A stretch of DNA of 64,000 nucleotides from Candidatus Yonathbacteria bacterium RIFCSPLOWO2_01_FULL_43_27 (GCA_001823545.1 MHUV01000005.1:15910-79909); one strand, 5' to 3'. Counted from the first letter of the stretch, positions 1 to 14,863 are shown. Made by a program: numbers and translations. Notes: generated by a model not told the origin, from the letters alone.

Positions 1-773
1 CCAACGCCATTGAGAACTCTACTCTAACTCTCAAGGAAACCGAGAAAATTCTTTTGGATATGGAAGTCTCACGGGATGTTTCCTTGCGTGAAGTCTACGA
101 GGCCAAAAACTTGGCTCGTGTTATCGGGTACATTCGTAATAAGAGCAAGGAGACGGAAGCGAACAAAGAGACGATTCTACTTTTACACCAGATGCTTATT
201 GGTGGAATTGACGACAAGATTGCTGGCCGTTTTAGAAAGCTTGGTGAGTATGTTCGTGTTGGAACCCACATAGCCCCGGCACCGGAACATGTTGAACGAA
301 TGATTGAGGCGATTATTACTGAGTACACAGGTGATCTATCTAACTACTTTTTAGACAAGATTGCCAAATTCCATTTAGATTTTGAAACCATCCATCCATT
401 TAACGATGGCAACGGCCGTATTGGCCGTGTACTTATTTGCTTCCAACTGCAACGTCTCGGTCTTCCTATAATTATTATCCGTGATCGCGAGAAAAAAGAA
501 TACTACAAATCTTTTGCTGAATACCGTGACAAACATAATGCCAAGACGATGGAGAAAGTTATTGCCTTAGCATTAATGGAATCATTAAATAAACGAAACA
601 CATATCTCAAGGGCCAGAAGGTTATTACTCTGTCTGAATATACAAGAAATAACAACTTGTCTGCCTCAGGAATGACTAATGCTGCTCGTCGTCAAAACAT
701 TCCGGCTTTTCGAGAAAAAGGTGTTTGGAAAATTGGCGAGGATTTTATTTATAACTCTCACAAAGAAAAATAA
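1..773 (+). CDS. fic: Fic/Doc family protein (adenylyltransferase-like), 5'-partial (reading frame open to window start)
   Basis: The canonical Fic motif HPFxDGNGRxxR is present as HPFNDGNGRIGR. The N-terminal region reads ...NAIENSTLTLKETEKIL, and there is no in-frame stop upstream to position 1. Confidence 0.8.
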   Translation, partial: NAIENSTLTLKETEKILLDMEVSRDVSLREVYEAKNLARVIGYIRNKSKETEANKETILLLHQMLIGGIDDKIAGRFRKLGEYVRVGTHIAPAPEHVERMIEAIITEYTGDLSNYFLDKIAKFHLDFETIHPFNDGNGRIGRVLICFQLQRLGLPIIIIRDREKKEYYKSFAEYRDKHNAKTMEKVIALALMESLNKRNTYLKGQKVITLSEYTRNNNLSASGMTNAARRQNIPAFREKGVWKIGEDFIYNSHKEK

Positions 774-957
774 AAGCGGTATTTACCCCGGGGCAAGCCC
801 CGGACAAAATGTTGTTCACTTCGTTGTTATGGGTCTTTTTCCGCTGAAAAAGCCCGCTACCCCACCTCGCGCCGTAGCGCTCTGGTCTTGCGAAACTCCA
901 TGTATTCGCTTCTCACACATTTACCGTCCCAGAGGGGCGGGGTATTATACCCTTGTA

Positions 958-1023
958 TTAGCTCCTCGGCTCGGAAATAAGAAAGATTACTTTCTCACTT
1001 CGCTCGCTCTACGTCGCTAATAA
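958..1023 (-). promoter_or_regulatory. Leader-like conserved element, copy A (homologous to the lysS 5' leader); no downstream gene
   Basis: About 85% identical to 14771..14834. In minus orientation it contains a 12-bp hairpin followed by CCGAGCCGAGGAGCUAAU, but only a 14-codon ORF follows. Confidence 0.4.
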
Positions 1024-1036
1024 ATATAGACGATCA

Positions 1037-1066
1037 AAAAGCGCCCTTTGGGCGCTTTTTTGTTTT
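1037..1066. terminator. Bidirectional rho-independent terminator
   Basis: GCGCCC-TTT-GGGCGC hairpin flanked by A-run and T-run. Confidence 0.6.
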
Positions 1067-1068
1067 TA

Positions 1069-1628
1069 CTATTTTATCACCTCTTCCAGCAACTCAGGAA
1101 ATTTTTCGGTTTTCATATCGTTAAAACAGAAGTGACCGTAGTTTTGAAAATCTCGAACAACGATATTTTTTACTTTGTTTTTTATAATTTCTACACTCTT
1201 TTTCATTTCCTCATCATCGTCAGTAGAATTAAAAATTGTTATACCATTTGTTTTAGACACTACATTCTCGTCTATATTAAATTCAAACATCTGAGTATCC
1301 TCTGTTTTAAATGGGTTGATCCACGGTGCAACTAAAACTACCTACCCAACTTTTACATCATTTTCACTTAGGTAGCGGAGCAAGAAACCAGCCCCGCAAC
1401 TGTGACCAATGAGCTGAGTATCACTGTCAATAACAAACTGTTTAAAGACAGAACACCATTTGGCATAGTCGGGACTATACGGCTCGGGCATTTCTGGAGT
1501 TTGTGCAAGAACACCCTTCAGGATGAGCTGTTTTTGAATCCAAGGGATCCAATGCTTATTGGACGAAGATCAGGATTAAAGTACTCTTCCTTCGGCGGCA
1601 TACCGTGAATTATAATTGCTGTTTTCAT
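1069..1628 (-). pseudogene. YdeN/RBBP9-like alpha/beta serine hydrolase gene, disrupted by a frameshift and an in-frame TAG
   Basis: The minus-strand translation begins MKTAIIIHGMPPKEEYFNPDLRP, then shifts frame into NKHWIPWIQKQL...LIGHSCGAGFLLRYLSENDVKVG. An in-frame TAG at 1342-1344 follows, and the same frame then continues VVLVAPWINPF...MFEFNID.... The HWxPWL and GHSxG motifs are those of the YdeN family. The total span of 560 nt is not a multiple of 3. Confidence 0.6.
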
Positions 1629-1762
1629 ATAGATGATTTTAGCGGGAAATACGCAGTTTTGCTAGTAAGTTAATATTTAATCAAAAGCTCTTGACCCATC
1701 CTTCCGTTCGCGTGTGGATAAAACCCAGCTCGTAAAGACGAGAGGAGTGAGGGCGGGGCTCC

Positions 1763-4531
1763 CTAGTCAATATTCAATTTTTGCATTCGTTTTTTAAGTG
1801 CATCTCCGCCCCCCTCAAGAATACTCACAATATCATCTCTAATCTGTTTATATTCAATTCCACCGTTGTGATATTTGAGATTATTGTTTTCATTTTCCGC
1901 AACTATCACATTCTCAGAGTCGGTTAGTAGTAAAAGATTAGGACTATGGGTCGCCACTATCACTTGACGTCTTTCTTTCTGGTCTAATACAAGCTTTCTT
2001 AGGTCATTTGAAATTCCGGAGACATCGATATCATTTTCTGGCTGATCAATAATTATCGGATATACACTTTTTGACAGATTGAATATGAGATCCAAAAGTG
2101 CCATCGCTTTCTGTCCACCAGTCATATTTTCAAAATCTATCAATTCCTCGCCATTCTTATATTTAACAGATTTTGTGAAATCAATATCATACCTACAGCT
2201 CAACAATGTCAGCAATGCACTCTCCTTATCACCACCTGTGACCTTCAATTTTGCAGTAGATGCATCAATGACAATATCTTTAATAATTTGAACTATTTCA
2301 GATTTATCAAAATCCCTTTTTTCATCAAAAAACTTTTTGAAACGGTCCCCAGATCGTCCATCAATATACACATCAAAAAACCTACTCTTATATTCATCTA
2401 CACTGTAACTCACTGTAAAATGGAATGTTATGAAAGTAAAATTATCAAATGCATCTTTGAGAGTTTGAACTATTCCCTCAATTTTGCTCTTAAAAGATAG
2501 GTACAAATCGGCTACTTCGTCAATTACTACTTCTTCTTTTTGACCAAATTCTTTGACAAATTTATCCAGTTTTTCTATCTCTTTTTTCTCGGCACTAAGC
2601 TTGTTTATTTCCTTTAGTATTTTTTCAATGGTTTTATTTTGCTGTAATTTCTCTGTTATTGGAACTAACTCTTTTTCGACAGTAATTTTTCTATCTTTTT
2701 TATTTTTAGTCTTTGACGCCAAGTCATTTAGCAACTCACTTAAATACTCTTTGATTTCTTGACCAGAAAGTTTTTCAATATGCTTTTCAATTAACTCTAA
2801 GGTTATCTGAGATAATCCAAAGAACACTTCACTGTCAACTGTGATGAAATTTACATCACTACCGCTATTGATGTTCTTTATAATCTGGAAATCTTGCTCC
2901 AATAACTTAATTTCTTTGATAAGTGATTCTATTTCCGAAAAATATTTTGTTTGATTTTCAATATCCGCGTCGGTTATATCAATCTTTCCAATCTTATTAA
3001 TTTCTTCTTGTTTAATTTTTATTGCACTGTCTTTATCTTCAGATTTCCCAAGTGGTTTTAGCTGGCTAGTTGTATCTACAATCTGCCTATGTGTACTTAG
3101 TGCTTCTTTAACTTTTGCATTAATTTTTAGTTCTATCGAATCTACAGCATCAGTCTTGCTTGTATCGGCGTTTTTGAATAAATCATTATTGAACAACCGC
3201 GCCTTGAGCATTTCGTCTCGTTTATCATAGTCTCTACCATCTTCATAAGTGATAGTCGATAGATAGTTTTGTGGTATGAATTCAACAAATTTATTCTCAG
3301 AGGTATCGTCGTACCAATGAATTTTAAAATCTTGTAACTTAAATATCTTTTTAACGTCAGGTTGTTCTTGCTCGCCGAGCACATTAAAAGCAATATGTTT
3401 GAGTAAAACAGATTTTCCGGCACCCCGTTTACCAATAACAGAATTTATATCCTTGTTAAAATAAATTGTGTGAATTTTACTGTTTTGCTTATATTCCACT
3501 CTGTCGATAAAAAGTTCTGGAGATGAATTTTTGTTTTCTGAGGGGTTTCTTTCTTGTATTAAAACTCTGTTTGCATAATCTACAACTACTTGTCTTAGTG
3601 TCTCAAAAGTAGTATCTCCCTTAATCCATGTAAAACAATGCCCTAAATCTTTAGGATTGGTATTAAAAAAATCAAATTTTACAACACCCTCATCTCCTGT
3701 TTGTTTAATAGTATGTGCATCACTGCAATGTAATAAACGACTATTTGCTGATTGAGTGTTTAATGAATCTATATTTTTATTTGTTTGCTTTGCACTTGGT
3801 GAAGCAGAAAAAACAATATGAGCATTGTTGATTATGTCCTTTTTGTCTACAGGAGACCCTGTCCACCTAAAATCTTCCCATTCTGATTTTCCAATAGCTT
3901 TTATATATTTACCTCTTAGATATGTGTTTGGTTCCTTTATCTCACCTAGACATTCTTTGAGTTTATCGAGACTGTAGCTTAAATTATTAAAGCCTATTTC
4001 AAAGTGATTATCGCTCTCTCTTTTATCTTCTGGAGTAGTGTCATATACATGTTTACCAAGATCAATTAAACTTTCTCTTGTAACAACTCCGCCCCAAGTG
4101 GTGCTACCCACATTATTCACATCAAGGTTGCATGATGATCTAAAACAATTTAAAAACTGTGCTTCTATTGTTTCAATATCAAGAATGCTCTGTTCCGCAA
4201 AGATAACATGGTAGTTAATTTTTTTTAATTGCTCATTACCCACAAACTCCTTTAATCTAAATTCTACAACAGGCAAAATTAAATCTATATTTTTCAGTCT
4301 GTTCACATTTTTATATTCTATTACTTTTTTGTAACCATCCAGAAACAGATAATCGTTAATACCTATAACTTTTATATCTTTGGGCAAACTTTCTAATCCA
4401 TTAATGAAATTCTCCCATTTTTTTTCTTCTGTCGCACCGGGATACTCCGATGTATGAGAAAACGGCGTGTGAACATGCAAATCCCACTTTCTCCATTCAG
4501 ACCCTTTGTTGTATTTTTGATCCTCTTCCAT
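1763..4531 (-). CDS. PHP-domain phosphoesterase fused to Rad50/SbcC-like coiled-coil ABC ATPase (candidate defence nuclease-ATPase)
   Basis: The N-terminus carries the PHP motif WDLHVHTPFSHTS. A Walker A (GKRGAGKS) is followed by a long K/E-rich coiled-coil segment of roughly 300 aa. The C-terminus carries an ABC signature (MTGGQKAMALLDL), Walker B (IIIDQPENDID) and H-loop (VATHSP). The start at Met56 of the ORF lies 4 nt after the stop of the upstream gene. Confidence 0.7.
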   Translation of the reverse strand: MEEDQKYNKGSEWRKWDLHVHTPFSHTSEYPGATEEKKWENFINGLESLPKDIKVIGINDYLFLDGYKKVIEYKNVNRLKNIDLILPVVEFRLKEFVGNEQLKKINYHVIFAEQSILDIETIEAQFLNCFRSSCNLDVNNVGSTTWGGVVTRESLIDLGKHVYDTTPEDKRESDNHFEIGFNNLSYSLDKLKECLGEIKEPNTYLRGKYIKAIGKSEWEDFRWTGSPVDKKDIINNAHIVFSASPSAKQTNKNIDSLNTQSANSRLLHCSDAHTIKQTGDEGVVKFDFFNTNPKDLGHCFTWIKGDTTFETLRQVVVDYANRVLIQERNPSENKNSSPELFIDRVEYKQNSKIHTIYFNKDINSVIGKRGAGKSVLLKHIAFNVLGEQEQPDVKKIFKLQDFKIHWYDDTSENKFVEFIPQNYLSTITYEDGRDYDKRDEMLKARLFNNDLFKNADTSKTDAVDSIELKINAKVKEALSTHRQIVDTTSQLKPLGKSEDKDSAIKIKQEEINKIGKIDITDADIENQTKYFSEIESLIKEIKLLEQDFQIIKNINSGSDVNFITVDSEVFFGLSQITLELIEKHIEKLSGQEIKEYLSELLNDLASKTKNKKDRKITVEKELVPITEKLQQNKTIEKILKEINKLSAEKKEIEKLDKFVKEFGQKEEVVIDEVADLYLSFKSKIEGIVQTLKDAFDNFTFITFHFTVSYSVDEYKSRFFDVYIDGRSGDRFKKFFDEKRDFDKSEIVQIIKDIVIDASTAKLKVTGGDKESALLTLLSCRYDIDFTKSVKYKNGEELIDFENMTGGQKAMALLDLIFNLSKSVYPIIIDQPENDIDVSGISNDLRKLVLDQKERRQVIVATHSPNLLLLTDSENVIVAENENNNLKYHNGGIEYKQIRDDIVSILEGGGDALKKRMQKLNID

Positions 4532-4535
4532 AATT

Positions 4536-5618
4536 CTATTTTCCAGACTTAGTTCTGTTGTCTTGCTTGCACAACATTTTGCAGTTTGTCGCGATTGTTT
4601 TCCCTCCCTCATGCCAAGGCTTAATATGATCCGCTTCCATTTCCTCGATCTCAAAGCGCTTTTTACACTTAGAGCAAATGCCTTTCTGTCTCTCATATGC
4701 CTCGCGCTTCATTTTGTCATTAAAGGCGCGGATATTTAACGCTCTTTCACTCCCAGTCAAAACATATTCGTAGATGCCAGACTTTTTAGTTACATCCTCA
4801 TCTTGCATCAGCTTTGTTATTTCTTTTTCCAATTTCTTAGCATCAAATTCTTTACCTTTTACTTTGTTGTATAAAGTTCCAAAAGGCACGCCTTTCATTT
4901 CCTTGCGATAGTTAGGAAAAACCGCCTTGACCCAATTTATTACACTCTGAAAATAAAGCCATAATTCGTTGGCGTTAGGTTTGTGCTGATGGTCTGCCAT
5001 GTATTGTTCAATTTTTCCATCGCTTATCCAATCTATTGTAGTTTCTAGGTAGTCTTGGCGGATTGCTGAACCATTTAAATAATCACTTCCAATGTTATAA
5101 GCGGGACAGCCAGTTTTACTAAAGTGTCTTTTTGCATCAGTTAGCCAAGTGCCAGTATAAATAGCATTTCTCAATTCTTGATCTGTTAATTTTTCCCCAG
5201 CAATGTTTATCGTCTTAAACCAATCCAATTTTTCTTTATCATTTCCTTCGCAGAAGTAAATCATCAGCTTGTAATTAAGAATCTGCTCTTTTTCGGTTTC
5301 TTCAAGATTGTGAAAATATTGGAAATTTAAGGAGAATTTACCCGCTATATATTCGCAAATACTTATAGTTCTTTGCTGTCCATCCATCACTTCATAAGTT
5401 CCATCTTCACTTTCAACCCAATACATTACATTCAAAGGAAAATTCTTTCTGACAGTTTCGATGACGGCATCTCTTTGATGATCCTTATAAACGAATTCTC
5501 TTTGATATTTAGGGCGGATATTTAATTTTCCACCATACCCAACAACACCTTCCTCGTTGTCATTAACATATTTATTTGAAACTTCTTTAATTGTGATTTC
5601 TTTTAGTTTAATTTTCAT
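4536..5618 (-). CDS. DUF262 (ParB/GmrS-like NTPase, DGQQR motif) fused to C-terminal HNH endonuclease
   Basis: The DUF262 signature DGQQR is present as VMDGQQRTISICEY. The C-terminal HNH motif reads EADHIKPWHEGGKTIATNCKMLCKQDNRTK. The probable start MKIKLKEITIK has an AGGA upstream. Confidence 0.75.
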   Translation of the reverse strand: MKIKLKEITIKEVSNKYVNDNEEGVVGYGGKLNIRPKYQREFVYKDHQRDAVIETVRKNFPLNVMYWVESEDGTYEVMDGQQRTISICEYIAGKFSLNFQYFHNLEETEKEQILNYKLMIYFCEGNDKEKLDWFKTINIAGEKLTDQELRNAIYTGTWLTDAKRHFSKTGCPAYNIGSDYLNGSAIRQDYLETTIDWISDGKIEQYMADHQHKPNANELWLYFQSVINWVKAVFPNYRKEMKGVPFGTLYNKVKGKEFDAKKLEKEITKLMQDEDVTKKSGIYEYVLTGSERALNIRAFNDKMKREAYERQKGICSKCKKRFEIEEMEADHIKPWHEGGKTIATNCKMLCKQDNRTKSGK

Positions 5619-5622
5619 AAAT

Positions 5623-6723
5623 TTATATTTTCCTATTTCTAATAATGACTCGAGCATAAATGCTTGAATATAGTTCTCCTGTTTCAGTATCCTTAAACGC
5701 AGGCGTTTTATCTGTTAGTGGATTGTATAAACGATATAATGTGCCTTTTGCGTTAAACGTATATTTTCCAGTAGGTGCCCCACTTTTGTCCAAAATCTCC
5801 ATTTTTTTATTAGAAGCAAAATCAATTGATCCAATTATTCCTAAAGCAACTAATTCAAATTGATCAGGACTGTACTTGTCCAAAAAAGTAATAGGAACAC
5901 CAATAGCACCCTTATAATCCACAGGAATATCTTTTGTTACATCAACATTTATAGCATCATAATTTTTATATTTGGGATATTCATTTTCATGTCCGTGATA
6001 CTCTTTATAAAGTATCAAGTCGTCGTGGCGTTCTTTATAATCCAAATTTGTAAACCAACGAACACCCTTAACTCGAATAAATTTATTTCCATTTTCATCA
6101 ATTCTATTTCCAGCAGAATTCAGAGGGTAAGATTCTGGAACTCTAAATTCCCTATCCCCGCTATGTATGCTTTGACCAAGCCAAATTTTGTTCTCCTTGA
6201 TCAATTTGAAAGTTTCTTTATAAGTTATAGCGTTCAAATTGCCGATAATAATAAATTTCTTTTTGTATTCAAATAATTGAGCTAGATATTCTCTAAATAA
6301 TGAAAAAGGTGGATTCGTAACAACAATGTCCGCTTCTTTTAGAATTTCAACACACTCGGGACTTCTAAAATCACCATCCTGTTTTAGTGGGGTTTTGATT
6401 GTATCTAATTTATTTATTTTTCCATCTTTATTTGTGTCTTTTACAATTTCCAATTTATAAGGCGATTCTTTTGTAAGCAAATTTGCATCTTTGTAATGAG
6501 TAGAGATGAGCTTCTTTAGTCCAAGGAATTCAAAATTTAAAGCAAAGTAATTCCAAAAATTGCTTTCTTCTGGGTCATCGCAATTACAAAATATGACTTT
6601 ATTTTTTAAGTGATCTTTATAATTTTTTAATTCTTTTTCAATATCAGACAACTGTGTATAAAACTCGTCGCTTTTTGCTCGGTTTGCCGTCTTTAAGTTT
6701 GCATTTGAGGATTTCTTTTTCAT
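5623..6723 (-). CDS. N6-adenine DNA methyltransferase (NPPF catalytic motif; EcoRI-methylase-like N-terminal DEFYT motif)
   Basis: The catalytic tetrapeptide NPPF appears as VVTNPPFS, with KSDEFYTQL near the N-terminus. It is the first gene of the minus-strand operon, downstream of an AT-rich promoter region. Confidence 0.65.
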   Translation of the reverse strand: MKKKSSNANLKTANRAKSDEFYTQLSDIEKELKNYKDHLKNKVIFCNCDDPEESNFWNYFALNFEFLGLKKLISTHYKDANLLTKESPYKLEIVKDTNKDGKINKLDTIKTPLKQDGDFRSPECVEILKEADIVVTNPPFSLFREYLAQLFEYKKKFIIIGNLNAITYKETFKLIKENKIWLGQSIHSGDREFRVPESYPLNSAGNRIDENGNKFIRVKGVRWFTNLDYKERHDDLILYKEYHGHENEYPKYKNYDAINVDVTKDIPVDYKGAIGVPITFLDKYSPDQFELVALGIIGSIDFASNKKMEILDKSGAPTGKYTFNAKGTLYRLYNPLTDKTPAFKDTETGELYSSIYARVIIRNRKI

Positions 6724-7008
6724 AAAATTATTTCAAAAGTTCGCTACTGGAAATTCCTAAAGCTCCAGCGTTTTTTCAGCTACTTTTGACGATATATATC
6801 AGAGTAATACTCTTTATTATCCTTATTTTTACAATACTTTATCAAATTTAGTATTCTCATTTATGAGAGAGTTTAACACATTTTGTTACAGAAAACCACT
6901 TCAAAAAAAGGGCATAACCCCTTTCCCTACAATATCGACAATATACTAGAATAACAACAATTATGATCCTATTAAATTAAAAATTATTATAGTATAATTA
7001 AACATATT

Positions 7009-7545
7009 ATGAAAAAATTTCTAAGTGTTTTGGTACGAATATTGGTCACTATCATAATAGCTACTGGTGTTTGCTATCTCATATATTCATATAGTAGTAA
7101 TTGGCGATATCTTGATCAAAAGAATCTTGTTTTTACTGTTGAAGATGCGAAGGGCGGTGAAGCTTTTGATGTTGTTGTTACAAAAGATCAGTTTAGTAAA
7201 TTACCTAATGCAACGACAACGATAAATAAATTAAGAAAAGGCGTTTATTCGAAAAATTGGGGAAATGAGGATACTTTAGTTGTAAAAGCAGTTGACTGGT
7301 ATAACTGTGGAGCTGGTCAAATATGGGGAAGTTATAAAATCGAAGACGATAAAATAACCATATTTAGTGGTAAAAAAAGTTTTGGACTCAAATTAATAAA
7401 CGTAGCAGAGGCTTGTATATATAGCTATGTGATGACCTACGAAATTTCAAATCTTGAATATAAAGATTACCAGATAACATATGTTCGGGCGCCTTACAAG
7501 CGAGGCTTTTTTGATTCCTTCATACCACAACCACGCTCCTTGTAA
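7009..7545 (+). CDS. Hypothetical membrane-anchored protein (N-terminal TM helix)
   Basis: A 178-aa ORF with a hydrophobic N-terminus (LVRILVTIIIATGVCYLIY). It is transcribed divergently from the methyltransferase operon and is AT-rich. Confidence 0.45.
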   Translation: MKKFLSVLVRILVTIIIATGVCYLIYSYSSNWRYLDQKNLVFTVEDAKGGEAFDVVVTKDQFSKLPNATTTINKLRKGVYSKNWGNEDTLVVKAVDWYNCGAGQIWGSYKIEDDKITIFSGKKSFGLKLINVAEACIYSYVMTYEISNLEYKDYQITYVRAPYKRGFFDSFIPQPRSL

Positions 7546-7587
7546 TTAAAGATGGGAGTTGTTCATATTAAAAACGAACAAGGAACA

Positions 7588-7744
7588 TTGACTCGCTTCG
7601 CTCGCCTCACTTTGTGTGGTCACAAATCACTAACCTACGGGGAAGCTCGCGATGTTCGCGGATCGGTCACAGATATTTTTCTGCTGAAAATAAATATATT
7701 GACTCGCTCCGCTCGCCTCACTTTGCGTGGTCACAAATCACTAA
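7588..7744. repeat. Two 46-nt direct repeats (7588..7633 and 7699..7744) plus hairpin motifs of the form TTTTTCnnnnGAAAAA
   Basis: TTGACTCGCTTCGCTCGCCTCACTTTGTGTGGTCACAAATCACTAA is repeated with 2 mismatches. Related short motifs recur at 829-853 and 7805-7825. Confidence 0.6.
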
Positions 7745-7847
7745 GTATAATTTTTCGCTGCGCTCAAATTCTACGTAAGTGTTTGCCGACCCCGGCTCGG
7801 CAATTTTTCTTCTGAAAAATTATGCCTGCGCCTTCACAAAAGCGAAA

Positions 7848-7872
7848 AAGACTGGAGCAGTCCAGTCTTTTT
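7848..7872. terminator. Rho-independent terminator (bidirectional)
   Basis: AAGACTGGA-GCAG-TCCAGTCTT hairpin followed by TTTTT. Confidence 0.6.
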
Positions 7873-7887
7873 ACTCTCACGCTTTTG

Positions 7888-7959
7888 TGACCCTACGGGG
7901 AATCGAACCCCGGTTTAAAGCTTGAAAAGCTTCTGTCCTAACCGTTAGACGATAGGGCC
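7888..7959 (-). tRNA. trnE: tRNA-Glu (anticodon UUC)
   Basis: The cloverleaf has acceptor GGCCCTA/TAGGGTC, anticodon stem GAAGC/GCTTT, loop TTTTCAA, T-arm CGGGG-TTCGATT-CCCCG and discriminator A. CCA is not encoded. Confidence 0.8.
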
Positions 7960-8067
7960 ATCCTTATATAAAACATAACAACAAGCCATTGAACAATATG
8001 ACTGTTTTATGCTCTTAAATAACTTTTGCAGTATACCAATTTTTGCCAAAAATGCAAAAATGATGTC

Positions 8068-9360
8068 CTACGAGCGTGCTTTCCACTCGGGCTCTTGGCG
8101 TACGAGGGTGAGATATGCCTTTTCTGGGTGTTGCATAAGTTCTTCTACAGCGCGCTCCATACGCATCGCCTGTGAACCTTTTACGAGGATTACATCTCCT
8201 TCTTTCAACATCCCCTCGAGGTACTTCCCTGCCTTTTGTGCATCATCAAACTCAAGAATATGCTTTTCGCTCATACCGCCTTCGAGCGCGCCCTCGGCAA
8301 TATACTTTGCCCGTGGGCCAACCGCGAAAAGCATATCTGCATTTTCTCCTACCGCAATGCCAAGCTTTTTATGTTCATCGACAGCAAATTTACCAAGCTC
8401 GAGCATATCACCCAAAACGGCAATCCTACGCGCCTTGGTCTTCACATCGCCAAGCACGAGCACTGCAGCGAGTGCCGCAGAAGGTGACGAGTTGTAAGTA
8501 TCATCAATAATGGTTGTGTTTTTAATACCCTCAATCACGCGCATACGGCCAGGGGGACTTTCATGTGCGGAAAGCGCATTTATACTATCCACAATATTCA
8601 GTTTCAAGTACGTGCCAACCGCAAGCGCTGCGAGTGCCGCATACACCGGCTGGGTACCAAGAACACCACGCACGGTCACGGGGAACGTATTACCGTTATA
8701 CTCAAGCTTAAACGTCGTACCTACGGGACGACTTTTTTCATACACAATGTGCGCATTGGTTGCGCGGAACATTGCCTGCTCGTCAAAACCAAAGGTAATA
8801 ACGCGTGCTTTGGTTTTTTCACGGAGCGCAAGCACGCGTTCGTCGTCGGCATTCAGTACGAGCATGCCCGTCTTTTTTAACCCTTTTACAATTTCTTCTT
8901 TTTCTTCAAAAAGTTCTTTGACTGATTTAAAAAACTCCACGTGTGCCGGCACGTCCCCAAAGTATGTCATCACGACAATATCTGAGTGCATCCATTTTGC
9001 AATACGTGCAATATCCCCTGGTTTTCCCGCAGCAATTTCAAGGACAAGCCACTTTGGATAATGCACGCGCGCCAGAAGCTGTACCAAACCGTGCACAAGG
9101 TTATTGAACCAGAGAACTGGATTTGCCCATGCATTTTCACAGCCGAGCACGGTGAGCGGAACACCGATCTCGCTGTTGAAACTCTTTGCACTTTTACGCG
9201 CAACGAGTGGGCGACCGATCACGGTAAAGATAGCATCCTTAGTAGAAGTCTTCCCTACACTTCCCGTTACAGAAACTATTTTTGGTTTATATTTACGAAG
9301 AACAAGTTTTGCTTCTCCTTCAAGGAGCGTGATAGCAAGAGGGCGTAAAAGTGATTTCAT
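8068..9360 (-). CDS. murF: UDP-N-acetylmuramoyl-tripeptide--D-alanyl-D-alanine ligase
   Basis: Mur ligase motifs VTGSVGKTSTK and DDTYNSSP are present, and the gene sits in the dcw cluster. Confidence 0.85.
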   Translation of the reverse strand: MKSLLRPLAITLLEGEAKLVLRKYKPKIVSVTGSVGKTSTKDAIFTVIGRPLVARKSAKSFNSEIGVPLTVLGCENAWANPVLWFNNLVHGLVQLLARVHYPKWLVLEIAAGKPGDIARIAKWMHSDIVVMTYFGDVPAHVEFFKSVKELFEEKEEIVKGLKKTGMLVLNADDERVLALREKTKARVITFGFDEQAMFRATNAHIVYEKSRPVGTTFKLEYNGNTFPVTVRGVLGTQPVYAALAALAVGTYLKLNIVDSINALSAHESPPGRMRVIEGIKNTTIIDDTYNSSPSAALAAVLVLGDVKTKARRIAVLGDMLELGKFAVDEHKKLGIAVGENADMLFAVGPRAKYIAEGALEGGMSEKHILEFDDAQKAGKYLEGMLKEGDVILVKGSQAMRMERAVEELMQHPEKAYLTLVRQEPEWKARS

Positions 9361-9420: not shown

Positions 9421-11136
9421 TTATCGATCGGGCGGTATCTCATAATAGTTTATCAGAAATTTCGCAATTTGCGTAAACGGTTTTGCGAGCGTATGTGATG
9501 CATACTGTTCTTTCTGAGGATTGCGCACGGCGAGAAAAACGACAAACTTTGGTGCGTACGAAGGAAAATATCCGACAAACGTGTGCAGATAATCCGTTTC
9601 AGAATATTTTCCATTTACCACCTGTTGTGCAGTTCCTGTTTTGGCGGCAATAGAGTAGTGCTCTTGTTTAAGGGAACCGTCGAGAAGTGCCGTGTCGACC
9701 GCCTTGGTCAACATACGAGAAATTTCTTGCGAAGTTTCTTTACTGATGACACGTCGCTCTCCCCCTGGAACAAACTCGCGTACCGACCCAAACCCGTATT
9801 CCACGCGTTTTACGACGTGCGGTGATACAAGCACGCCACCATTTCCCAGCGCGGCAAACGCGCGGATCGTCGCGATCGGGGTAAGTGAAATTCCTTGCCC
9901 AAATGATGCCGTCGCAAACTCGATATCACGATCACTATCAAGGTTCTCGAGGTTCCCTAACCCTTCGTTTGGAAGATCGATTCCTGTTTCCTCTCCAAGC
10001 CCAAATGACTCAAAATAGCTACGAAAACGCTCTTTTCCCAAGCGCTCCATTGCAAACGCTGAGCCAGTATTGAGTGACTGATTCAACACTACCTGCATAT
10101 TCACAACACCGCGCGCCTTGTCATCAAAGTTCGATATTTTTTTTGTATTGAAAATACGAAATCCTTTATCGTCGTACGTCGTCTGCGCGGTGATGACGCG
10201 CGCGTCAAGACCCGCAGCGATCGTAAATGCTTTTATGATTGATCCCATTTCGTACACGCCCTCGACAAGTGGATTTACAAAAACATTTTGATTGCGTTCT
10301 TTTGAAAAATTATTTGGGTCAAAGGAGGGTGTTGATGCCATTGCTACGATAGCTCCTGTTGTAGGATCCATAATAATCCCCATTGCTTGTCCTGCGTGAT
10401 ATTTTTTTAACACGTCTTCTTCAAGCGCGCGTTCGAGCATCCCCTGTACGGTTGGTTCGATGGTCATTACCAACTCCCCTGCACGAGCGCGATCGAGAAT
10501 AATAGCTTCTCCGGCTTTCAAAAAAAGGTTGGCAAAGAACCCTAGTGAACCATCCGCATCTTTACGAAAGAGTGTTCCATTATAATAGCGTTCGAGCCCA
10601 TACTGCCCTTCCACGGGGCCACCGTTCGAACCGATAAAGCCAATGACTTGCGACGCGGTACGTCCGAGCGGATAGAAACGCTTTTTATCTTTTTTTAGGA
10701 CGAACGCCTGTTCACCAAGTGCTTTAATCTGATCTGCCTCTTTCTCTGAAAGATGTTTTTTAATTTCCTTATATCGACTTCCTGTTTGTACTGCCTTTGC
10801 AATAAAATCTGCTCGGTCGAAGGAGTCTATGAATGGCGCGAGTTTATCCGCAAGTGCTTCTACACCACCCGCCTTTATGAGTGAGGGGTCAATCGCGAGC
10901 GTATAGTCAGGCACAACGGTTGCTGCAGAAATAGTACGTCCTGTTTTCTCTTCAAAGAAAATAGAGCCGCGATCAAAAAATCCGCCTTCAGGAAGCGTGT
11001 ATTGACGTTCTGCTTTTACACGATATGTTTCGCCCTGCACAATTTGAATGTAACCCAATTTAGCAACAAGAACAACGGTTAACAAAAGAATTCCCGTATT
11101 AATGAACCAAATGTTTCTCAGTGTGCCATTCTTCAT
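9421..11136 (-). CDS. ftsI: Penicillin-binding protein, transpeptidase (FtsI-like)
   Basis: SxxK (GSIIKAF), SxN (NQSLNTG) and KTG (AKTGTA) motifs are present, with an N-terminal TM helix, in dcw cluster position. Confidence 0.8.
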   Translation of the reverse strand: MKNGTLRNIWFINTGILLLTVVLVAKLGYIQIVQGETYRVKAERQYTLPEGGFFDRGSIFFEEKTGRTISAATVVPDYTLAIDPSLIKAGGVEALADKLAPFIDSFDRADFIAKAVQTGSRYKEIKKHLSEKEADQIKALGEQAFVLKKDKKRFYPLGRTASQVIGFIGSNGGPVEGQYGLERYYNGTLFRKDADGSLGFFANLFLKAGEAIILDRARAGELVMTIEPTVQGMLERALEEDVLKKYHAGQAMGIIMDPTTGAIVAMASTPSFDPNNFSKERNQNVFVNPLVEGVYEMGSIIKAFTIAAGLDARVITAQTTYDDKGFRIFNTKKISNFDDKARGVVNMQVVLNQSLNTGSAFAMERLGKERFRSYFESFGLGEETGIDLPNEGLGNLENLDSDRDIEFATASFGQGISLTPIATIRAFAALGNGGVLVSPHVVKRVEYGFGSVREFVPGGERRVISKETSQEISRMLTKAVDTALLDGSLKQEHYSIAAKTGTAQQVVNGKYSETDYLHTFVGYFPSYAPKFVVFLAVRNPQKEQYASHTLAKPFTQIAKFLINYYEIPPDR

Positions 11137-11438
11137 TATTGCGCTAAAGAAAACTTATCATGCGTAGTATGAGAAAATTTTGCCGTCACCTCCTTGAAAC
11201 CGAGGTCACTTGCGTGCGCAAGTGTAACGCTATTTTGAAGGTGCATGTATTCCTGCTCAAGCATACTTGCCTGTGTGGTCATTTCACGCATCTGAGAAAC
11301 AACACGGTCACGCTCAACACCGGCCACGGTGAGCGAAATGACAAAATAAAAATATAAAAAGAATGACAACCCTAAAAATCCCACAAGGAGCCAGAATAAT
11401 TTTCTTTCGAGATTGTTGACGAGAATTTTTGTGGTCAT
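11136..11438 (-). CDS. ftsL: Cell division protein FtsL-like (small bitopic membrane protein)
   Basis: A 100-aa protein with a single TM helix plus a coiled region, located between rsmH and ftsI. Confidence 0.5.
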   Translation of the reverse strand: MTTKILVNNLERKLFWLLVGFLGLSFFLYFYFVISLTVAGVERDRVVSQMREMTTQASMLEQEYMHLQNSVTLAHASDLGFKEVTAKFSHTTHDKFSLAQ

Positions 11439-11441
11439 ATA

Positions 11442-12347
11442 TTAAGGTGTTGTTGTAGATAGTTTTTCAATGATACGTAACTTTGCACTGCGGGACTTTG
11501 GATTTCGTTCGAGTTCTTCGTCACTCGGGGTAATGGGTCTCTTTACCACAAGGGTACCTTTCCCTTCATCCGCATATGTTCTAAAAAAATTCTTCACCAT
11601 GCGGTCTTCTAAACTATGAAATGAGATGATCGCCATACGCCCTCCTGGTGCTAGGCGCGCGAACCCTTTCGTGATCCCATCGCGGAGCGCACCCAGCTCA
11701 TCATTTACGGCAATGCGAATTGCTTGAAACACTTTGGTTGCGGGGTGAATCTTTCCGAATCGCGCAAATACCGGTACGGCATTTTTTACAATCTCGGCAA
11801 GCTCCCCCGTGGTCTCGATAGGTTTTGCGGTGCGTGCGCTTACAATTGCTTGTGCAATACGCCATGCAAATCGTTCCTCTCCATACCCTGTAAAAATATC
11901 AGTGAGAGTATCTGCACCCCACTCGTTGACGATTTCGCGCGCGGTGAGGTCGTCCTCACGCGGGGTCACACGAAATGTCATACGAAGTGGCTCGTCGCGC
12001 TTGAAAGAAAACCCTCTCCCTGGTTCCTCAAGCTGAAGATTGGAAAGACCGATATCAAAAAGCATCTTATCAACAAAAGGCATGCCTTCTTCGTCGAGCA
12101 CGCGGTCAAGATTTCTAAAATTTTCTAATTTAAAAATCTTCTTGCAAGAATAGGGAGCTAAACGCTCCTCGGCGCGTGCGAGGGCATTTTCGTCCTCGTC
12201 AGTACCAACGTACACTCCCTCGGCGCCAATCTTTTTGCAGATTTCTTCGCTATGCCCACCAAGACCAACGGTCCCTTCAAAGACACGGTCTCCGGTCTGT
12301 AGCACAAGTCCATCAAGTGTTTCTTGTAAAAGAACAGGGATATGCAT
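11442..12347 (-). CDS. rsmH: 16S rRNA (cytosine1402-N4)-methyltransferase
   Basis: Begins MHIPVLLQETLDGL and carries the DGTVGLGGHS motif. Confidence 0.85.
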   Translation of the reverse strand: MHIPVLLQETLDGLVLQTGDRVFEGTVGLGGHSEEICKKIGAEGVYVGTDEDENALARAEERLAPYSCKKIFKLENFRNLDRVLDEEGMPFVDKMLFDIGLSNLQLEEPGRGFSFKRDEPLRMTFRVTPREDDLTAREIVNEWGADTLTDIFTGYGEERFAWRIAQAIVSARTAKPIETTGELAEIVKNAVPVFARFGKIHPATKVFQAIRIAVNDELGALRDGITKGFARLAPGGRMAIISFHSLEDRMVKNFFRTYADEGKGTLVVKRPITPSDEELERNPKSRSAKLRIIEKLSTTTP

Positions 12348-12352
12348 ACGGT

Positions 12353-12787
12353 TTACAATATCCCAACCTCTCCTAATTTCTCGGCCAACGCATCTGCTTG
12401 CTTTTCAATGCGCTCCTTATACGCACCCCATACTTTTTCATCCCACAACTCAACACGATCGTGGACACCAATAACAGCTACTGATGTCTGGAACCCTGCA
12501 AATGTTTTCAAAAAATCGGGGACCAAAATACGACCAATTGAATCTATATCACTTTCAACAGCACCTGCGAGCATAAAGCGCCCAAACCCGCGTGTATCTG
12601 CTTGCCCCATCGGAAGGAGCGCAATTTTCTCACTCACCTTTTGCCATGCCTTGAGTGGATATACAAAAAGACAGTTGTCTAATCCACGCGTAATGACCAC
12701 TTTCTTGCCAAGTTCTTTACGAAACTTGGACGGAAGCGCGAGGCGCTTTTTTGGGTCAAGTGTGTGAATGTATTCTCCGATAAGCAT
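12353..12787 (-). CDS. mraZ: Transcriptional regulator MraZ
   Basis: Duplicated DxxxR motifs (LDPKKRLALP... / DSIGRILVP) in a 144-aa protein; first gene of the dcw cluster. Confidence 0.8.
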   Translation of the reverse strand: MLIGEYIHTLDPKKRLALPSKFRKELGKKVVITRGLDNCLFVYPLKAWQKVSEKIALLPMGQADTRGFGRFMLAGAVESDIDSIGRILVPDFLKTFAGFQTSVAVIGVHDRVELWDEKVWGAYKERIEKQADALAEKLGEVGIL

Positions 12788-13003
12788 GAAGATATTCTTA
12801 GTGAGTGAAGCGAGGAATGACCACCACCACAGCCCTAGTTTTGAATTATCGAAATTTCAATCACTCAAAACTAGAGCTGGATGGAAATTTAAACAGTCGC
12901 TTACGCTCTTTTTAAATTATCCACTTCATCCCACTTATCTACTATTTTATAGCACTTCACCCCACTCTGCAAGAAAAGTTATCCACACATCTACACAAAA
13001 AAA

Positions 13004-13026
13004 GGCCCAAGAAACTGGGCCTTTTT
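13004..13026. terminator. Bidirectional rho-independent terminator
   Basis: AAAAAAA-GGCCCA-agaaac-TGGGCC-TTTTT. Confidence 0.65.
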
Positions 13027-13054
13027 ACAAAAAAATAATAAAACGTAGTTACCG

Positions 13055-13210
13055 TTACTCCTCCTCGCCGACAAGGGCAAAGGGAGTATCATCGAAAAAG
13101 AGCTTGCGAACATCTTTCCTGTTCATGGCATGGGGGCGCTCAGCCAGAGGCTTCGTTTTTTCCCTGTTCAGTTTGTTCAGGTTCATTGTAATCTCTCCTT
13201 TCGTCGCCAT
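13055..13210 (-). CDS. Hypothetical small protein (51 aa) between lysS and the terminator
   Basis: GGAGGAGCGTGCAATG gives an RBS ahead of MATKGEITMNLNKLNREKTKPLAERPHAMNRKDVRKLFFDDTPFALVGEEE, and the terminator follows directly. Confidence 0.3.
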   Translation of the reverse strand: MATKGEITMNLNKLNREKTKPLAERPHAMNRKDVRKLFFDDTPFALVGEEE

Positions 13211-13290
13211 TGCACGCTCCTCCTTTTTTTAGAGTTACTAGTTGAACTGCAAAAATCTGAAAAAAATTATAGCACACTCACAGAAAATTA

Positions 13291-14769: not shown

Positions 14770-14770
14770 A

Positions 14771-14834
14771 TTAGCTCCTCGGCTCGGAAATGGAAAGAGT
14801 ACTTTTCATTTCACTCGCTCTACGTCGCTAATAA
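14771..14834 (-). promoter_or_regulatory. lysS 5' leader element, copy B: hairpin plus GGAGG RBS
   Basis: In minus orientation it reads UUAUUAGCGACGUAGAGCGAG-[GAAAUGAAAAG/CUCUUUCCAUUUC hairpin]-CGAGCCGAGGAGCUAAU-AUG(lysS). Confidence 0.5.
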
Positions 14835-14863
14835 TGGGCGCACTGACCCTAAAACGTGATGAA

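What the first reader, a model, noticed from the sequence alone, without database searches (positions are those of the whole stretch)
1763..6723. Candidate uncharacterised defence operon: adenine MTase + DUF262-HNH nuclease + PHP-Rad50-like ATPase
Three minus-strand genes are translationally coupled, with 4-nt gaps or overlaps between them. In transcription order they are an N6-adenine DNA methyltransferase (NPPF motif), a DUF262(DGQQR)-HNH protein, and a 923-aa PHP-phosphoesterase/SbcC-like ABC ATPase. They sit inside an AT-rich island next to a tRNA. The MTase implies self-DNA modification, and the other two genes each carry a nuclease domain (HNH; PHP) plus an NTPase (DUF262; ABC ATPase). 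I could not match this combination to BREX, DISARM, Dnd/Ssp, GmrSD or a classical type I-IV R-M layout, so it may be a new modification-linked restriction or abortive-infection module.
Basis: partly seen in the sequence, partly recalled or inferred. Interest (0 to 1): 0.9.

Follow-up and report, generated by a model that had tools for sequence, protein, structure and literature searches.

The report
Restriction system with a nuclease rider
The three genes are not one new defence system: they are an ordinary two-gene restriction-modification pair plus an attached nuclease-ATPase gene that, in this bacterial group, rides on restriction operons of every kind.

Summary
Three minus-strand genes (6723-1763) are joined by 4-nt gaps and lie in a low-GC stretch near tRNA-Glu.

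The first two genes are an EcoRI-family N6-adenine methyltransferase and a DUF262-HNH nuclease. Together they form a self-contained type II restriction-modification (R-M) pair. PADLOC matches them as MTase_II and, end to end, as REase_II. The same pair occurs without the third gene in archaea, Flavobacterium, Paceibacterota and many plasmids.

The third gene is a TrlF-family protein that passes the NCBIfam cut-off. It combines an N-terminal PHP phosphoesterase fold with a Rad50/SMC-like ABC ATPase head and coiled coil. It is a distant relative of the single-gene defence Ppl.

Its close relatives (63-89% identical, Patescibacteria metagenomes) nearly always sit directly after a gene of an R-M operon. 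These operons are type I, type III and five unrelated type II kinds. DNA similarity is confined to the TrlF reading frame, and the TrlF tree does not follow R-M type. About 30% of distant relatives are also R-M-linked.

My best reading is that TrlF is a portable second-layer effector, probably a nucleotide-gated exonuclease acting on DNA ends, co-expressed with whichever R-M system it joins. The mechanism is inferred. I class it as a new variant of a known kind, of moderate interest.

The parts
5623..6723 (-). EcoRI-family (NPPF) N6-adenine DNA methyltransferase, 366 aa; first gene of the operon
   Evidence: Pfam PF13651 EcoRI_methylase 9.9e-134 over the full length. PADLOC MTase_II 9.2e-119. 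Partner of the DUF262-HNH gene in every related locus examined.
4536..5618 (-). DUF262 (GmrS/ParB-like NTPase, DGQQR) + HNH restriction endonuclease, 360 aa
   Evidence: Pfam GmrSD_N 3.5e-21 and HNH 1.3e-10. PADLOC REase_II PDLC03418 8.5e-145, residues 1-360 against profile positions 1-372 of 372. The 120 best hits listed are 78-95% identical and span bacteria and archaea.
1763..4531 (-). TrlF-family protein, 922 aa: PHP phosphoesterase + Rad50/SMC-like ABC ATPase with a coiled-coil insert; the 'rider' cassette
   Evidence: NCBIfam NF045780 TrlF equivalog 398.9 bits (cut-off 350), residues 9-919. Weak Ppl matches covering the C-terminal half only. AF2 model with pLDDT 84. blastn similarity to other loci is limited to this ORF.
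3527..4504 (-). PHP-fold phosphoesterase domain of TrlF (residues ~10-335), HxH motif at 4463-4486
3194..3514 (-). ABC ATPase head, N-terminal lobe with Walker A GKRGAGKS (3410-3433)
2450..3184 (-). Long antiparallel coiled-coil insert (residues ~450-694)
   Evidence: Helices 450-555 and 590-694 in the AF2 model. Best Foldseek hits are SMC, Rad50, JetC and RecN heads with coiled coils.
1778..2434 (-). ABC ATPase head, C-terminal lobe: signature MTGGQK, Walker B IIIDQPE (2036-2056, Gln in place of the catalytic Glu), H-loop ATHS
5619..5622 (-). 4-nt junction methyltransferase stop / nuclease start (TAAatttATG)
4532..4535 (-). 4-nt junction nuclease stop / TrlF start (TAGaattATG); the 'aattATGGAA' start context recurs in other loci
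6816..6845 (-). Candidate sigma-70-type promoter (TTGATA-18-GATAAT) upstream of the methyltransferase; consensus match only

Best explanation
The operon is a composite of two independently mobile modules that are transcribed together.

**Module 1 (shown by comparison).** This is a type II restriction-modification pair. The EcoRI-family methyltransferase marks host adenines. The DUF262-HNH enzyme cuts unmarked DNA with its HNH site. Its DUF262 domain probably makes cutting nucleotide-dependent, as in GmrSD/BrxU.

**Module 2.** This is a TrlF-family 'rider'. It has a PHP-fold metal-dependent phosphoesterase fused to a Rad50/SMC-like ABC head with a coiled coil. It is translationally coupled to the last R-M gene.

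**What is shown about the rider.** In this Patescibacteria clade the cassette sits in R-M operons of type I, type III and five unrelated type II kinds. Its DNA similarity to the other loci is confined almost entirely to the TrlF reading frame, and its phylogeny is not congruent with R-M type.

**What is inferred.** The partners share no protein, so TrlF cannot depend on a specific R-M protein. It most likely acts on what all R-M systems produce, namely free DNA ends in unmodified invader DNA. By analogy with E. coli Ppl, the ABC head would bind nucleotide and DNA ends, and would license the PHP domain to degrade DNA 3'->5'. Its Walker B carries Gln where the catalytic Glu normally sits, so it looks like a slow or non-hydrolysing nucleotide sensor. 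TrlF would then finish off restricted DNA, or kill the infected cell when restriction is overrun. That makes it a second defence layer riding on the first.
For: **Module 1.**
- PADLOC MTase_II and full-length REase_II; Pfam.
- The methyltransferase-nuclease pair stands alone, with 1-4-nt coupling in the Flavobacterium, plasmid and Paceibacterota copies, in Pacearchaeota, Flavobacterium, Paceibacterota and plasmids of Aeromonas, Gordonia and others.

**Module 2, identity.**
- TrlF equivalog above cut-off.
- Catalytic PHP and Walker A residues are invariant in 55 homologues.

**Module 2, riding on R-M operons.**
- HpaII R-M + TrlF.
- Type I HsdM-TrlF-HsdS-HsdR.
- Type III Mod-Res-TrlF.
- IceA/NlaIII-type and DpnII-type.
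- The same EcoRI-M/DUF262-HNH trio five more times.
- The TrlF start lies -11 to +6 nt from the upstream stop in most loci.
- Nucleotide similarity of 73-86% is restricted to the TrlF ORF.
- The NJ tree mixes R-M types, for example 92% identity between TrlF copies beside HpaII and beside DUF262-HNH.

**Distant relatives.**
- 21 of 73 species-level loci have an R-M-like gene within 3 kb.
- R-M-like ORF density falls 18-fold, from 0.090 per kb next to TrlF to 0.005 per kb at 7.5-10 kb.
- Pfam on operon neighbours is dominated by ResIII, Methylase_S and N6_Mtase.
- HpaII-TrlF recurs at only 26% TrlF identity in viral contigs.

**Mechanistic analogy.**
[quoted passage not shown] It is inhibited by NTPs bound to its PHP and NTPase domains and needs 3'-OH ends (PMC12904381).
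- Gln at the catalytic-Glu position aligns with engineered E->Q AriA and Rad50 mutants.
Against: - No experiment exists on this clade.
- Similarity to Ppl is weak and covers the C-terminal half only (88.9 bits against a cut-off of 1000).
- About 70% of distant TrlF relatives have no R-M gene nearby, and E. coli Ppl works alone. Dependence on restriction products is therefore not required by the family.
- In Photorhabdus, TrlF sits in a different operon (trlR-trlF-trlG) linked to temperature-dependent growth arrest, and no role for TrlF itself was shown.
- Unrelated genes (a 567-aa ORF, Bro-N, RhuM) occupy the same slot in other R-M operons. This fits simple hitchhiking.
- The nuclease substrate (DNA or RNA) is not established; the nearest PHP structures include the RNase AM exoribonuclease.
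Confidence: 0.55

Rival explanations
1. Pure hitchhiker. TrlF is an autonomous single-gene, Ppl-like defence or abortive-infection gene. It lands in R-M operons only because insertions there are tolerated and supply a promoter and linked transfer. It has no functional interplay with restriction.
For: - E. coli Ppl acts as a single gene.
- Most distant relatives are not next to R-M genes.
- On plasmids, TrlF sits beside Abi genes or DUF2130 rather than inside R-M operons.
- Other unrelated genes occupy the same slot.
- Embedding of defence genes in R-M, BREX and DISARM systems is a general pattern (bioRxiv 10.1101/2024.01.29.577857).
Against: - In the close clade, every locus but one (L092, only 267 nt of upstream sequence) whose upstream DNA could be read (about 20 distinct loci) is R-M-embedded, with near-zero intergenic distance. 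That is a far tighter association than a passive sink predicts.
- The association recurs at 26% identity and decays sharply with distance.
Confidence: 0.25
2. PrrC-like guard. TrlF is held inactive by physical contact with the R-M proteins. It is released as a suicide nuclease when a phage anti-restriction protein inhibits them.
For: - PrrC and RloC are ABC-ATPase nucleases embedded in type I R-M loci, and PrrC is silenced by EcoprrI.
- In type I loci TrlF sits between hsdM and hsdS.
Against: - TrlF copies 76-92% identical to one another sit beside unrelated partners (HsdM, Res, HpaII, DpnII-system methyltransferase, IceA-system methyltransferase, DUF262-HNH).
- The TrlF tree does not track the partner type. 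A specific protein-protein lock is therefore unlikely.
Confidence: 0.08
3. One integrated three-component system. The methyltransferase marks self DNA, and DUF262-HNH and PHP-ATPase are obligate partners of a new modification-linked restriction machine.
For: - Tight translational coupling.
- The trio recurs in five other contigs.
Against: - The methyltransferase + DUF262-HNH pair is common without TrlF.
- An operon whose DUF262-HNH nuclease is 95% identical carries an unrelated gene in the TrlF slot.
- TrlF is found with seven other R-M kinds.
- Within the trio loci TrlF stays 76-89% identical, while the nuclease falls to 38-67% and the methyltransferase to 44-51%.
Confidence: 0.04
4. Self-protection or repair factor. 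TrlF is an SbcCD/Mre11-Rad50 analogue that processes accidental self-restriction breaks so the host survives carrying R-M systems.
For: - Rad50/SMC-like head and coiled coil plus a nuclease domain.
- Association with every R-M type that makes double-strand breaks.
Against: - The nearest characterised relative (Ppl) is an anti-phage effector.
- Family members sit in defence islands beside Abi genes on phage-resistance plasmids and on viral contigs.
- The Photorhabdus TRL operon causes growth arrest.
- Gln replaces the catalytic Glu, which is atypical for a repair motor.
Confidence: 0.08

Closest known systems
Ppl (polymerase/histidinol-phosphatase-like single-gene anti-phage protein, E. coli)
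   Same: Same two-part build: an N-terminal PHP-type nuclease and a C-terminal ABC-type NTPase. PADLOC Ppl 4.8e-24 and NCBIfam Ppl 2.1e-25 match the C-terminal half. Probably the same logic of a nucleotide-gated nuclease acting at DNA ends (PMC12904381).
   Different: Far below the Ppl family cut-off (88.9 against 1000 bits). The N-terminal half does not align to Ppl models. Here the gene is promoter-less and coupled to an R-M operon rather than standing alone.
TrlF of the Photorhabdus Temperature Restricting Locus (NCBIfam NF045780)
   Same: The window protein passes the equivalog cut-off over its full length. RefSeq annotates plasmid homologues with the same name.
   Different: The Photorhabdus context is trlR-trlF-trlG, with an AlbA_2/HATPase_c_4 partner. 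It causes growth arrest at 36-37 C, and suppressor mutations arose in trlG only. No TrlG or TrlR lies within or directly beside this operon; the partners are R-M genes.
PrrC / RloC (ABC-ATPase anticodon nucleases linked to type I R-M loci)
   Same: An ABC ATPase fused to a nuclease and embedded in an R-M operon as a back-up defence. RloC also has a Rad50-like coiled coil.
   Different: The effector is an N-terminal PHP phosphoesterase, not a C-terminal HEPN-type tRNase. The partners include types I, II and III. Partner-independent shuffling argues against PrrC-style silencing by contact.
Classical type II R-M systems with EcoRI-family methyltransferases
   Same: Separate adjacent methyltransferase and nuclease genes, an NPPF gamma-class adenine methyltransferase, and a PADLOC REase_II profile hit.
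   Different: The nuclease is HNH fused to a DUF262 NTPase-like domain rather than the PD-(D/E)XK fold of EcoRI/MunI (own knowledge). The recognition site is unknown; AATT-core sites are not depleted in the window.
GmrSD / BrxU / SspE (DUF262-containing type IV or modification-sensing nucleases)
   Same: N-terminal DUF262 with a DGQQR-type motif plus a His-Me/HNH nuclease (review PMC12707154).
   Different: The C-terminal domain is PF01844 HNH, not DUF1524. The gene is always paired with a methyltransferase, which implies restriction of unmodified DNA rather than modified DNA.
SbcCD / Mre11-Rad50 and Wadjet JetC, PARIS AriA
   Same: ABC head with an inserted coiled coil; top structural and profile matches.
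   Different: The nuclease is fused in cis and is of the PHP fold. The coiled coil is short (~240 residues). Walker B has Gln instead of Glu.

Membership tests
Type II restriction-modification system (genes 1 and 2) | Adjacent, separately encoded methyltransferase and endonuclease, conserved as a pair | tested here: met
   4-nt junction. The pair is conserved in archaea, Bacteroidota, Patescibacteria and plasmids of several phyla.
Type II restriction-modification system (genes 1 and 2) | Methyltransferase with a SAM-dependent amino-methyltransferase catalytic motif (D/N)PP(Y/F) | tested here: met
   NPPF in the translation. PF13651 9.9e-134. PADLOC MTase_II.
Type II restriction-modification system (genes 1 and 2) | Endonuclease belonging to a recognised type II REase family | tested here: met
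   PADLOC REase_II PDLC03418 8.5e-145, end to end. HNH 1.3e-10.
Type II restriction-modification system (genes 1 and 2) | Nuclease cuts at or near the site the methyltransferase modifies, and methylation blocks cutting | not testable with these tools
   Needs methylome and cleavage assays. Site-avoidance analysis of the 64-kb window gave no signal for AATT-core sites.
TrlF family (NCBIfam NF045780 equivalog) | Score at or above the curated cut-off over the full length | tested here: met
   398.9 bits against a cut-off of 350; residues 9-919 on profile positions 1-943 of 944.
TrlF family (Photorhabdus TRL operon) | Operon partners TrlR and TrlG (AlbA_2 + HATPase_c_4) | tested here: not met
   The flanking genes are the HNH nuclease and a disrupted hydrolase gene. 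No such domains appeared among the neighbours scanned.
Ppl anti-phage protein | Score at or above the NCBIfam Ppl cut-off, or a full-length PADLOC Ppl match | tested here: not met
   88.9 bits against a cut-off of 1000. The matches cover residues ~495-918 only.
Ppl anti-phage protein | PHP nuclease domain + NTPase domain in one polypeptide | tested here: met
   PHP fold. ABC head with Walker A, signature and Walker B motifs.
Ppl anti-phage protein | ssDNA 3'-5' exonuclease inhibited by NTPs and activated by 3'-OH ends | not testable with these tools
   Biochemistry is required. The property is taken from PMC12904381.
PrrC/RloC R-M-linked anticodon nucleases | C-terminal HEPN-type anticodon nuclease domain | tested here: not met
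   No such domain was found. The nuclease is an N-terminal PHP fold.
PrrC/RloC R-M-linked anticodon nucleases | ABC ATPase gene embedded in an R-M operon | tested here: met
GmrSD type IV restriction | DUF262 + DUF1524 architecture with no cognate methyltransferase | tested here: not met
   The C-terminal domain is PF01844 HNH, and DUF1524 is absent. A methyltransferase is always adjacent.
BREX / DISARM / Dnd-Ssp / MADS | Signature genes (PglZ/BrxC, DrmA/B, DndA-E/SspA-D, MAD1-8) | tested here: not met
   The PADLOC scan of the operon gives only a partial mad3 hit (2.5e-12) on the ATPase and no other signature gene.

The most novel reading that the evidence does not exclude
TrlF in this candidate-phyla-radiation clade is a universal 'restriction amplifier'. 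It is a plug-in cassette that functionally depends on the DNA ends made by any R-M system (type I, II or III). It degrades the restricted DNA, or triggers cell suicide when the ends persist, and so supplies the post-restriction exonuclease role that RecBCD plays in E. coli. Its ABC head, with Gln in place of the catalytic Glu, would act as a nucleotide-level sensor rather than a motor.
Probability: 0.25. Interest if true: 0.8.

Novelty: new variant of a known kind. Interest (0 to 1): 0.55.

Why it matters
**The R-M pair is routine.** On its own it needs no follow-up beyond finding its recognition site.

**The rider is the interesting part.** One nuclease-ATPase cassette, 73-92% conserved, has been grafted behind unrelated restriction systems of all three ATP-independent and ATP-dependent classes. 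It carries start-codon-precise boundaries. I found no description of this pattern in the libraries or papers searched.
- PADLOC v2 has no model for it beyond sub-threshold Ppl hits.
- PHROGs has none.
- The only paper naming TrlF concerns temperature restriction in Photorhabdus.

**What follows if the link is functional.** It would be a clean natural example of layered immunity in which the second layer reads a generic product of the first (DNA ends) rather than a specific protein. It would also give a direct handle on how Ppl-type PHP-ABC effectors are triggered.

**A practical lesson.** Tight translational coupling does not by itself show that genes belong to one system.

Tried and rejected
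- **Sequence searches against solved structures.** The three proteins gave nothing useful beyond AriA and a small HNH protein.
- **Pfam PHP models.** They do not detect the N-terminal domain in the window protein or in 8 of 9 relatives, even at E<=10. I used structure prediction instead.
- **Origin of the TrlF name.** I first suspected the Helicobacter 'tRNA-associated locus trl'. That locus is unrelated. The name comes from Photorhabdus.
- **tRNA-targeted integration.** There is no repeat of the tRNA-Glu 3' end and no integrase within 1-8100, so I make no such claim.
- **Controller (C) protein.** None lies upstream of the methyltransferase, although related operons have one.
- **Recognition site by palindrome avoidance.** AATT-core sites are not depleted. 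Only CATG, TATA, ACGT and CTAG are, so the site is not inferred.
- **Non-coding RNA.** Rfam found only the two tRNAs. The fold of the 47-nt repeat region is not significant (z = -1.55).
- **Lactococcal antiphage papers.** They do not describe the pNP40 DUF2130-TrlF pair.
- **The 567-aa protein in the TrlF slot of L131.** It is unrelated to TrlF and has no Pfam domain on record in the gene table and no PADLOC or PHROGs hit.

Full report
**1. What is in the sequence**

The region 1763-6723 carries three minus-strand ORFs.
- A 366-aa protein at 5623-6723.
- A 360-aa protein at 4536-5618, counted from the second ATG. The longest ORF starts at 5657 and would overlap the first gene.
- A 922-aa protein at 1763-4531.

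Both junctions read stop codon, four bases, ATG: TAAatttATG and TAGaattATG. GC is 0.28-0.34 across 2001-7500, against 0.42-0.51 in the cell-division gene cluster from 8068 onward. tRNA-Glu(TTC) lies at 7887-7959 on the minus strand. Between it and the operon are a plus-strand 178-aa ORF with no family hit and a pair of 47-nt repeats. I found no integrase and no duplicate of the tRNA end.

**2. The first two genes are a classical restriction-modification (R-M) pair**

Family assignments:
- Gene 1 matches Pfam EcoRI_methylase (9.9e-134) and PADLOC MTase_II (9.2e-119), and carries NPPF.
- Gene 2 has DUF262/GmrSD_N (3.5e-21) and HNH (1.3e-10). It matches the PADLOC type II restriction enzyme profile PDLC03418 end to end at 8.5e-145.

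Gene 2 is unusually conserved. The 120 best hits listed are 78-95% identical and almost all exactly 360 aa. They come from Patescibacteria, DPANN archaea and Flavobacterium.

The two-gene unit stands alone in several settings:

| Host or record | Nuclease identity to window | Methyltransferase identity |
|---|---|---|
| Pacearchaeota | 81% | 64% |
| Flavobacterium | 79% | 58% |
| Paceibacterota contig, beside a serine recombinase | 86% | not measured |
| Plasmids of Aeromonas, Gordonia, Variovorax, Sulfitobacter, Macrococcus and others | 47-66% | not measured |

On the plasmids, RefSeq annotates the pair as 'DUF262 domain-containing protein | adenine-specific methyltransferase EcoRI family protein'. 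None of these loci has the third gene. The pair is an autonomous, highly mobile type II R-M module. Its recognition site remains unknown, and AATT-core palindromes are not depleted in the window.

**3. The third gene**

Sequence evidence:
- NCBIfam places it in the TrlF family, with 398.9 bits against a cut-off of 350 over the full length.
- Matches to the anti-phage protein Ppl are weak and cover only residues ~495-918 (PADLOC 4.8e-24; NCBIfam 88.9 bits against a cut-off of 1000).
- Pfam sees only ABC/SMC-type ATPase fragments and no PHP domain, even at permissive thresholds.

Structural evidence:
- An AlphaFold2 model built on 55 homologues has mean pLDDT 84.
- A separate model of residues 1-335 (pLDDT 83, pTM 0.86) has only PHP proteins as significant Foldseek hits.

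Conserved motifs:
- The PHP metal-ligand motifs (D17, H19, H21, E90, H108, D271, H273) are invariant.
- So are Walker A (GKRGAGKS), the signature (MTGGQK), Walker B and the H-loop.

One detail stands out. Walker B reads IIIDQPE, with an invariant Gln where ABC ATPases carry the catalytic Glu. The family profile aligns best to engineered E->Q trap mutants of AriA (8v46, LIDQPE; wild type LIDEPE) and of Rad50 (5dac).

**4. Where relatives of the third gene live**

This decides the interpretation. Close relatives (63-89% identity) are all from Patescibacteria-type metagenome contigs. I read their surroundings in about 23 distinct loci.

| R-M context of the close TrlF relative | Loci |
|---|---|
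| Same EcoRI-type methyltransferase + DUF262-HNH + TrlF trio | L087, L093, L095, L097, L099 |
| C-protein + m5C methyltransferase + HpaII nuclease + TrlF | L081 |
| N4/N6 methyltransferase + IceA (NlaIII-like) + D12 methyltransferase + TrlF | L094 |
| D12 methyltransferase + DpnII + N4/N6 methyltransferase + TrlF | L121 |
| Type III Mod + Res + TrlF | L088, L089, L091, L123 |
| Type I HsdM + TrlF + HsdS + HsdR | L082, L083, L096, L102, L103, L104 |

Further points:
- L100 shows an HsdM-like C-terminus directly upstream of TrlF.
- Only L092 shows no upstream gene, and just 267 nt of upstream sequence are available there.
- The TrlF start lies -11 to +6 nt from the preceding stop in most loci.
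- blastn similarity between the window and these loci (73-86% identity) begins within about 10-25 nt of the TrlF start codon and ends within about 80 nt of its stop, while the flanks are unrelated.
- A neighbour-joining tree of TrlF proteins mixes the R-M types. The TrlF beside DUF262-HNH in L087 is closest (92%) to the one beside HpaII. A type I copy is closest (88%) to a type III copy.
- Within the trio loci TrlF stays 76-89% identical, while the nuclease falls to 38-67% and the methyltransferase to 44-51%.
- An operon whose nuclease is 95% identical to the window's carries an unrelated 567-aa gene in the TrlF slot.

**5. The wider family**

An exhaustive search finds 869 clusters at E<=1e-30. 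I examined 73 species-level loci with an intact gene, at 22-49% identity.
- None has a homologue of the window's methyltransferase or nuclease within 10 kb.
- 24 have some R-M-like gene within 10 kb, 21 within 3 kb, and 10 directly adjacent on the same strand.
- R-M-like ORF density falls from 0.090 per kb next to TrlF to 0.005 per kb at 7.5-10 kb.
- Pfam families most common among 105 co-oriented neighbours are ResIII, Methylase_S, N6_Mtase, N6_N4_Mtase, Eco57I and HSDR_N.

TrlF-like genes also occur on viral contigs. Seven of 38 are next to R-M genes, including an HpaII-TrlF pair at only 26% TrlF identity. On plasmids they sit beside Abi genes, a DUF2130 gene (Lactococcus pNP40) or a type I HsdR.

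**6. Interpretation**

The operon is a composite of a type II R-M pair and a portable TrlF cassette that uses the R-M operon for its expression. The partner proteins are unrelated and partners are exchanged faster than TrlF diverges. A PrrC-style lock by protein contact is therefore unlikely, and an obligate three-part machine is excluded.

What all partners share is their product: breaks and ends in unmodified DNA. [quoted passage not shown] NTPs bound to its PHP and NTPase domains hold it off, and it needs 3'-OH ends (PMC12904381). I therefore infer that TrlF is a nucleotide-gated, end-binding PHP exonuclease acting as a second layer behind restriction. The Gln-for-Glu Walker B fits a sensor rather than a motor.

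This step is inference. The conservative rival is that TrlF is autonomous and merely hitchhikes, as many genes embedded in R-M, BREX and DISARM systems may (bioRxiv 10.1101/2024.01.29.577857). That rival remains substantial.

**7. Comparison with known systems, and novelty**

The R-M pair is already known as a kind. The TrlF protein is a member of a named but functionally untested family. The name comes from the Photorhabdus Temperature Restricting Locus, where trlR-trlF-trlG causes growth arrest at 36-37 C and all suppressors map to trlG. TrlF works like, but is not a member of, Ppl.

R-M-embedded ABC-ATPase nucleases are a known theme (PrrC, RloC). The apparently new element is a PHP-ABC cassette that rides on type I, II and III systems alike, with ORF-precise boundaries. 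I found no description of it in the libraries and papers available here. I rate it a new variant of a known kind, with interest about 0.55. It stays above routine because of the rider.

Noticed in passing
window 2036-2056 (TrlF Walker B): Walker B reads IIIDQPE, with Gln invariant in 55 homologues at the position of the catalytic Glu. The family profile aligns best to engineered E->Q mutants of AriA (8v46) and Rad50 (5dac). This suggests a naturally hydrolysis-impaired, nucleotide-sensing ABC head.
   Followed up: partly
L131:2598-4301 (metagenome contig k141_62664, same sample as L081): An operon whose DUF262-HNH nuclease is 95% identical to the window's (HTH + EcoRI-type methyltransferase + DUF262-HNH) carries an unrelated 567-aa ORF, 3 nt after the nuclease stop, in the slot TrlF occupies here. 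It has no Pfam domain on record in the gene table and no PADLOC or PHROGs hit. It may be another uncharacterised R-M accessory gene.
   Followed up: partly
window 54-773 (+) and L124:5011-5934: A Fic-domain protein (HPFxDGNGR motif; PADLOC PDC-S04/SoFic-like) lies convergent to the operon about 1 kb beyond the TrlF stop. A 56%-identical Fic gene sits directly upstream of a 53%-identical TrlF in L124, which has no R-M genes. Fic-like hits also occur near TrlF in L062, L044 and L093.
   Followed up: partly
window 1069-1640 (-): A probable disrupted alpha/beta serine hydrolase gene (GHSCG motif, YdeN/RBBP9-like by eye). It has an in-frame TAG and an N-terminal frame break, and lies between the TrlF stop and a strong bidirectional hairpin at 1036-1060.
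   Followed up: no
window 7587-7633 and 7698-7744: Two 47-nt direct repeats, 96% identical and 111 nt apart, lie between ORF 7009-7545 and tRNA-Glu. There is no other copy in the window, no Rfam hit, and the fold is not significant (z = -1.55).
   Followed up: partly
whole window: CATG is strongly under-represented (108 observed, 202 expected, z = -6.6). TATA, ACGT and CTAG are also depleted. This is compatible with past pressure from NlaIII/IceA-type restriction, a system seen next to TrlF in the related contig L094.
   Followed up: no
window 4536-5618 and its homologues: The DUF262-HNH restriction enzyme is unusually conserved for a nuclease of this kind. The 120 best hits listed are 78-95% identical and almost all exactly 360 aa, across Patescibacteria, DPANN archaea and Flavobacterium. 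It is more conserved than its methyltransferase partner (80% against 58-64%).
   Followed up: partly
L127 (Lactococcus lactis pNP40, 11074-14944): The classical phage-resistance plasmid pNP40 carries a DUF2130 + TrlF gene pair, between two m5C methyltransferase genes and an Abi gene. DUF2130 also neighbours TrlF in two of the species-level loci. The lactococcal antiphage papers I could read do not mention the pair.
   Followed up: partly
window 7009-7545 (+): A 178-aa ORF with an N-terminal hydrophobic segment and low GC has no hit in Pfam, NCBIfam, PADLOC or PHROGs. It sits between the operon's promoter region and tRNA-Glu.
   Followed up: no
L082:6121-6999, L104:2970-3998, L105:716-1744, L123:1654-3311: Other genes share the R-M operons that host TrlF. 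They are Bro-N (PADLOC candidate PDC-S13), RhuM, and an HTH/peptidase M78 (RmrA-like) + DUF4411 pair. These operons appear to act as general docking sites for accessory genes in this lineage.
   Followed up: partly
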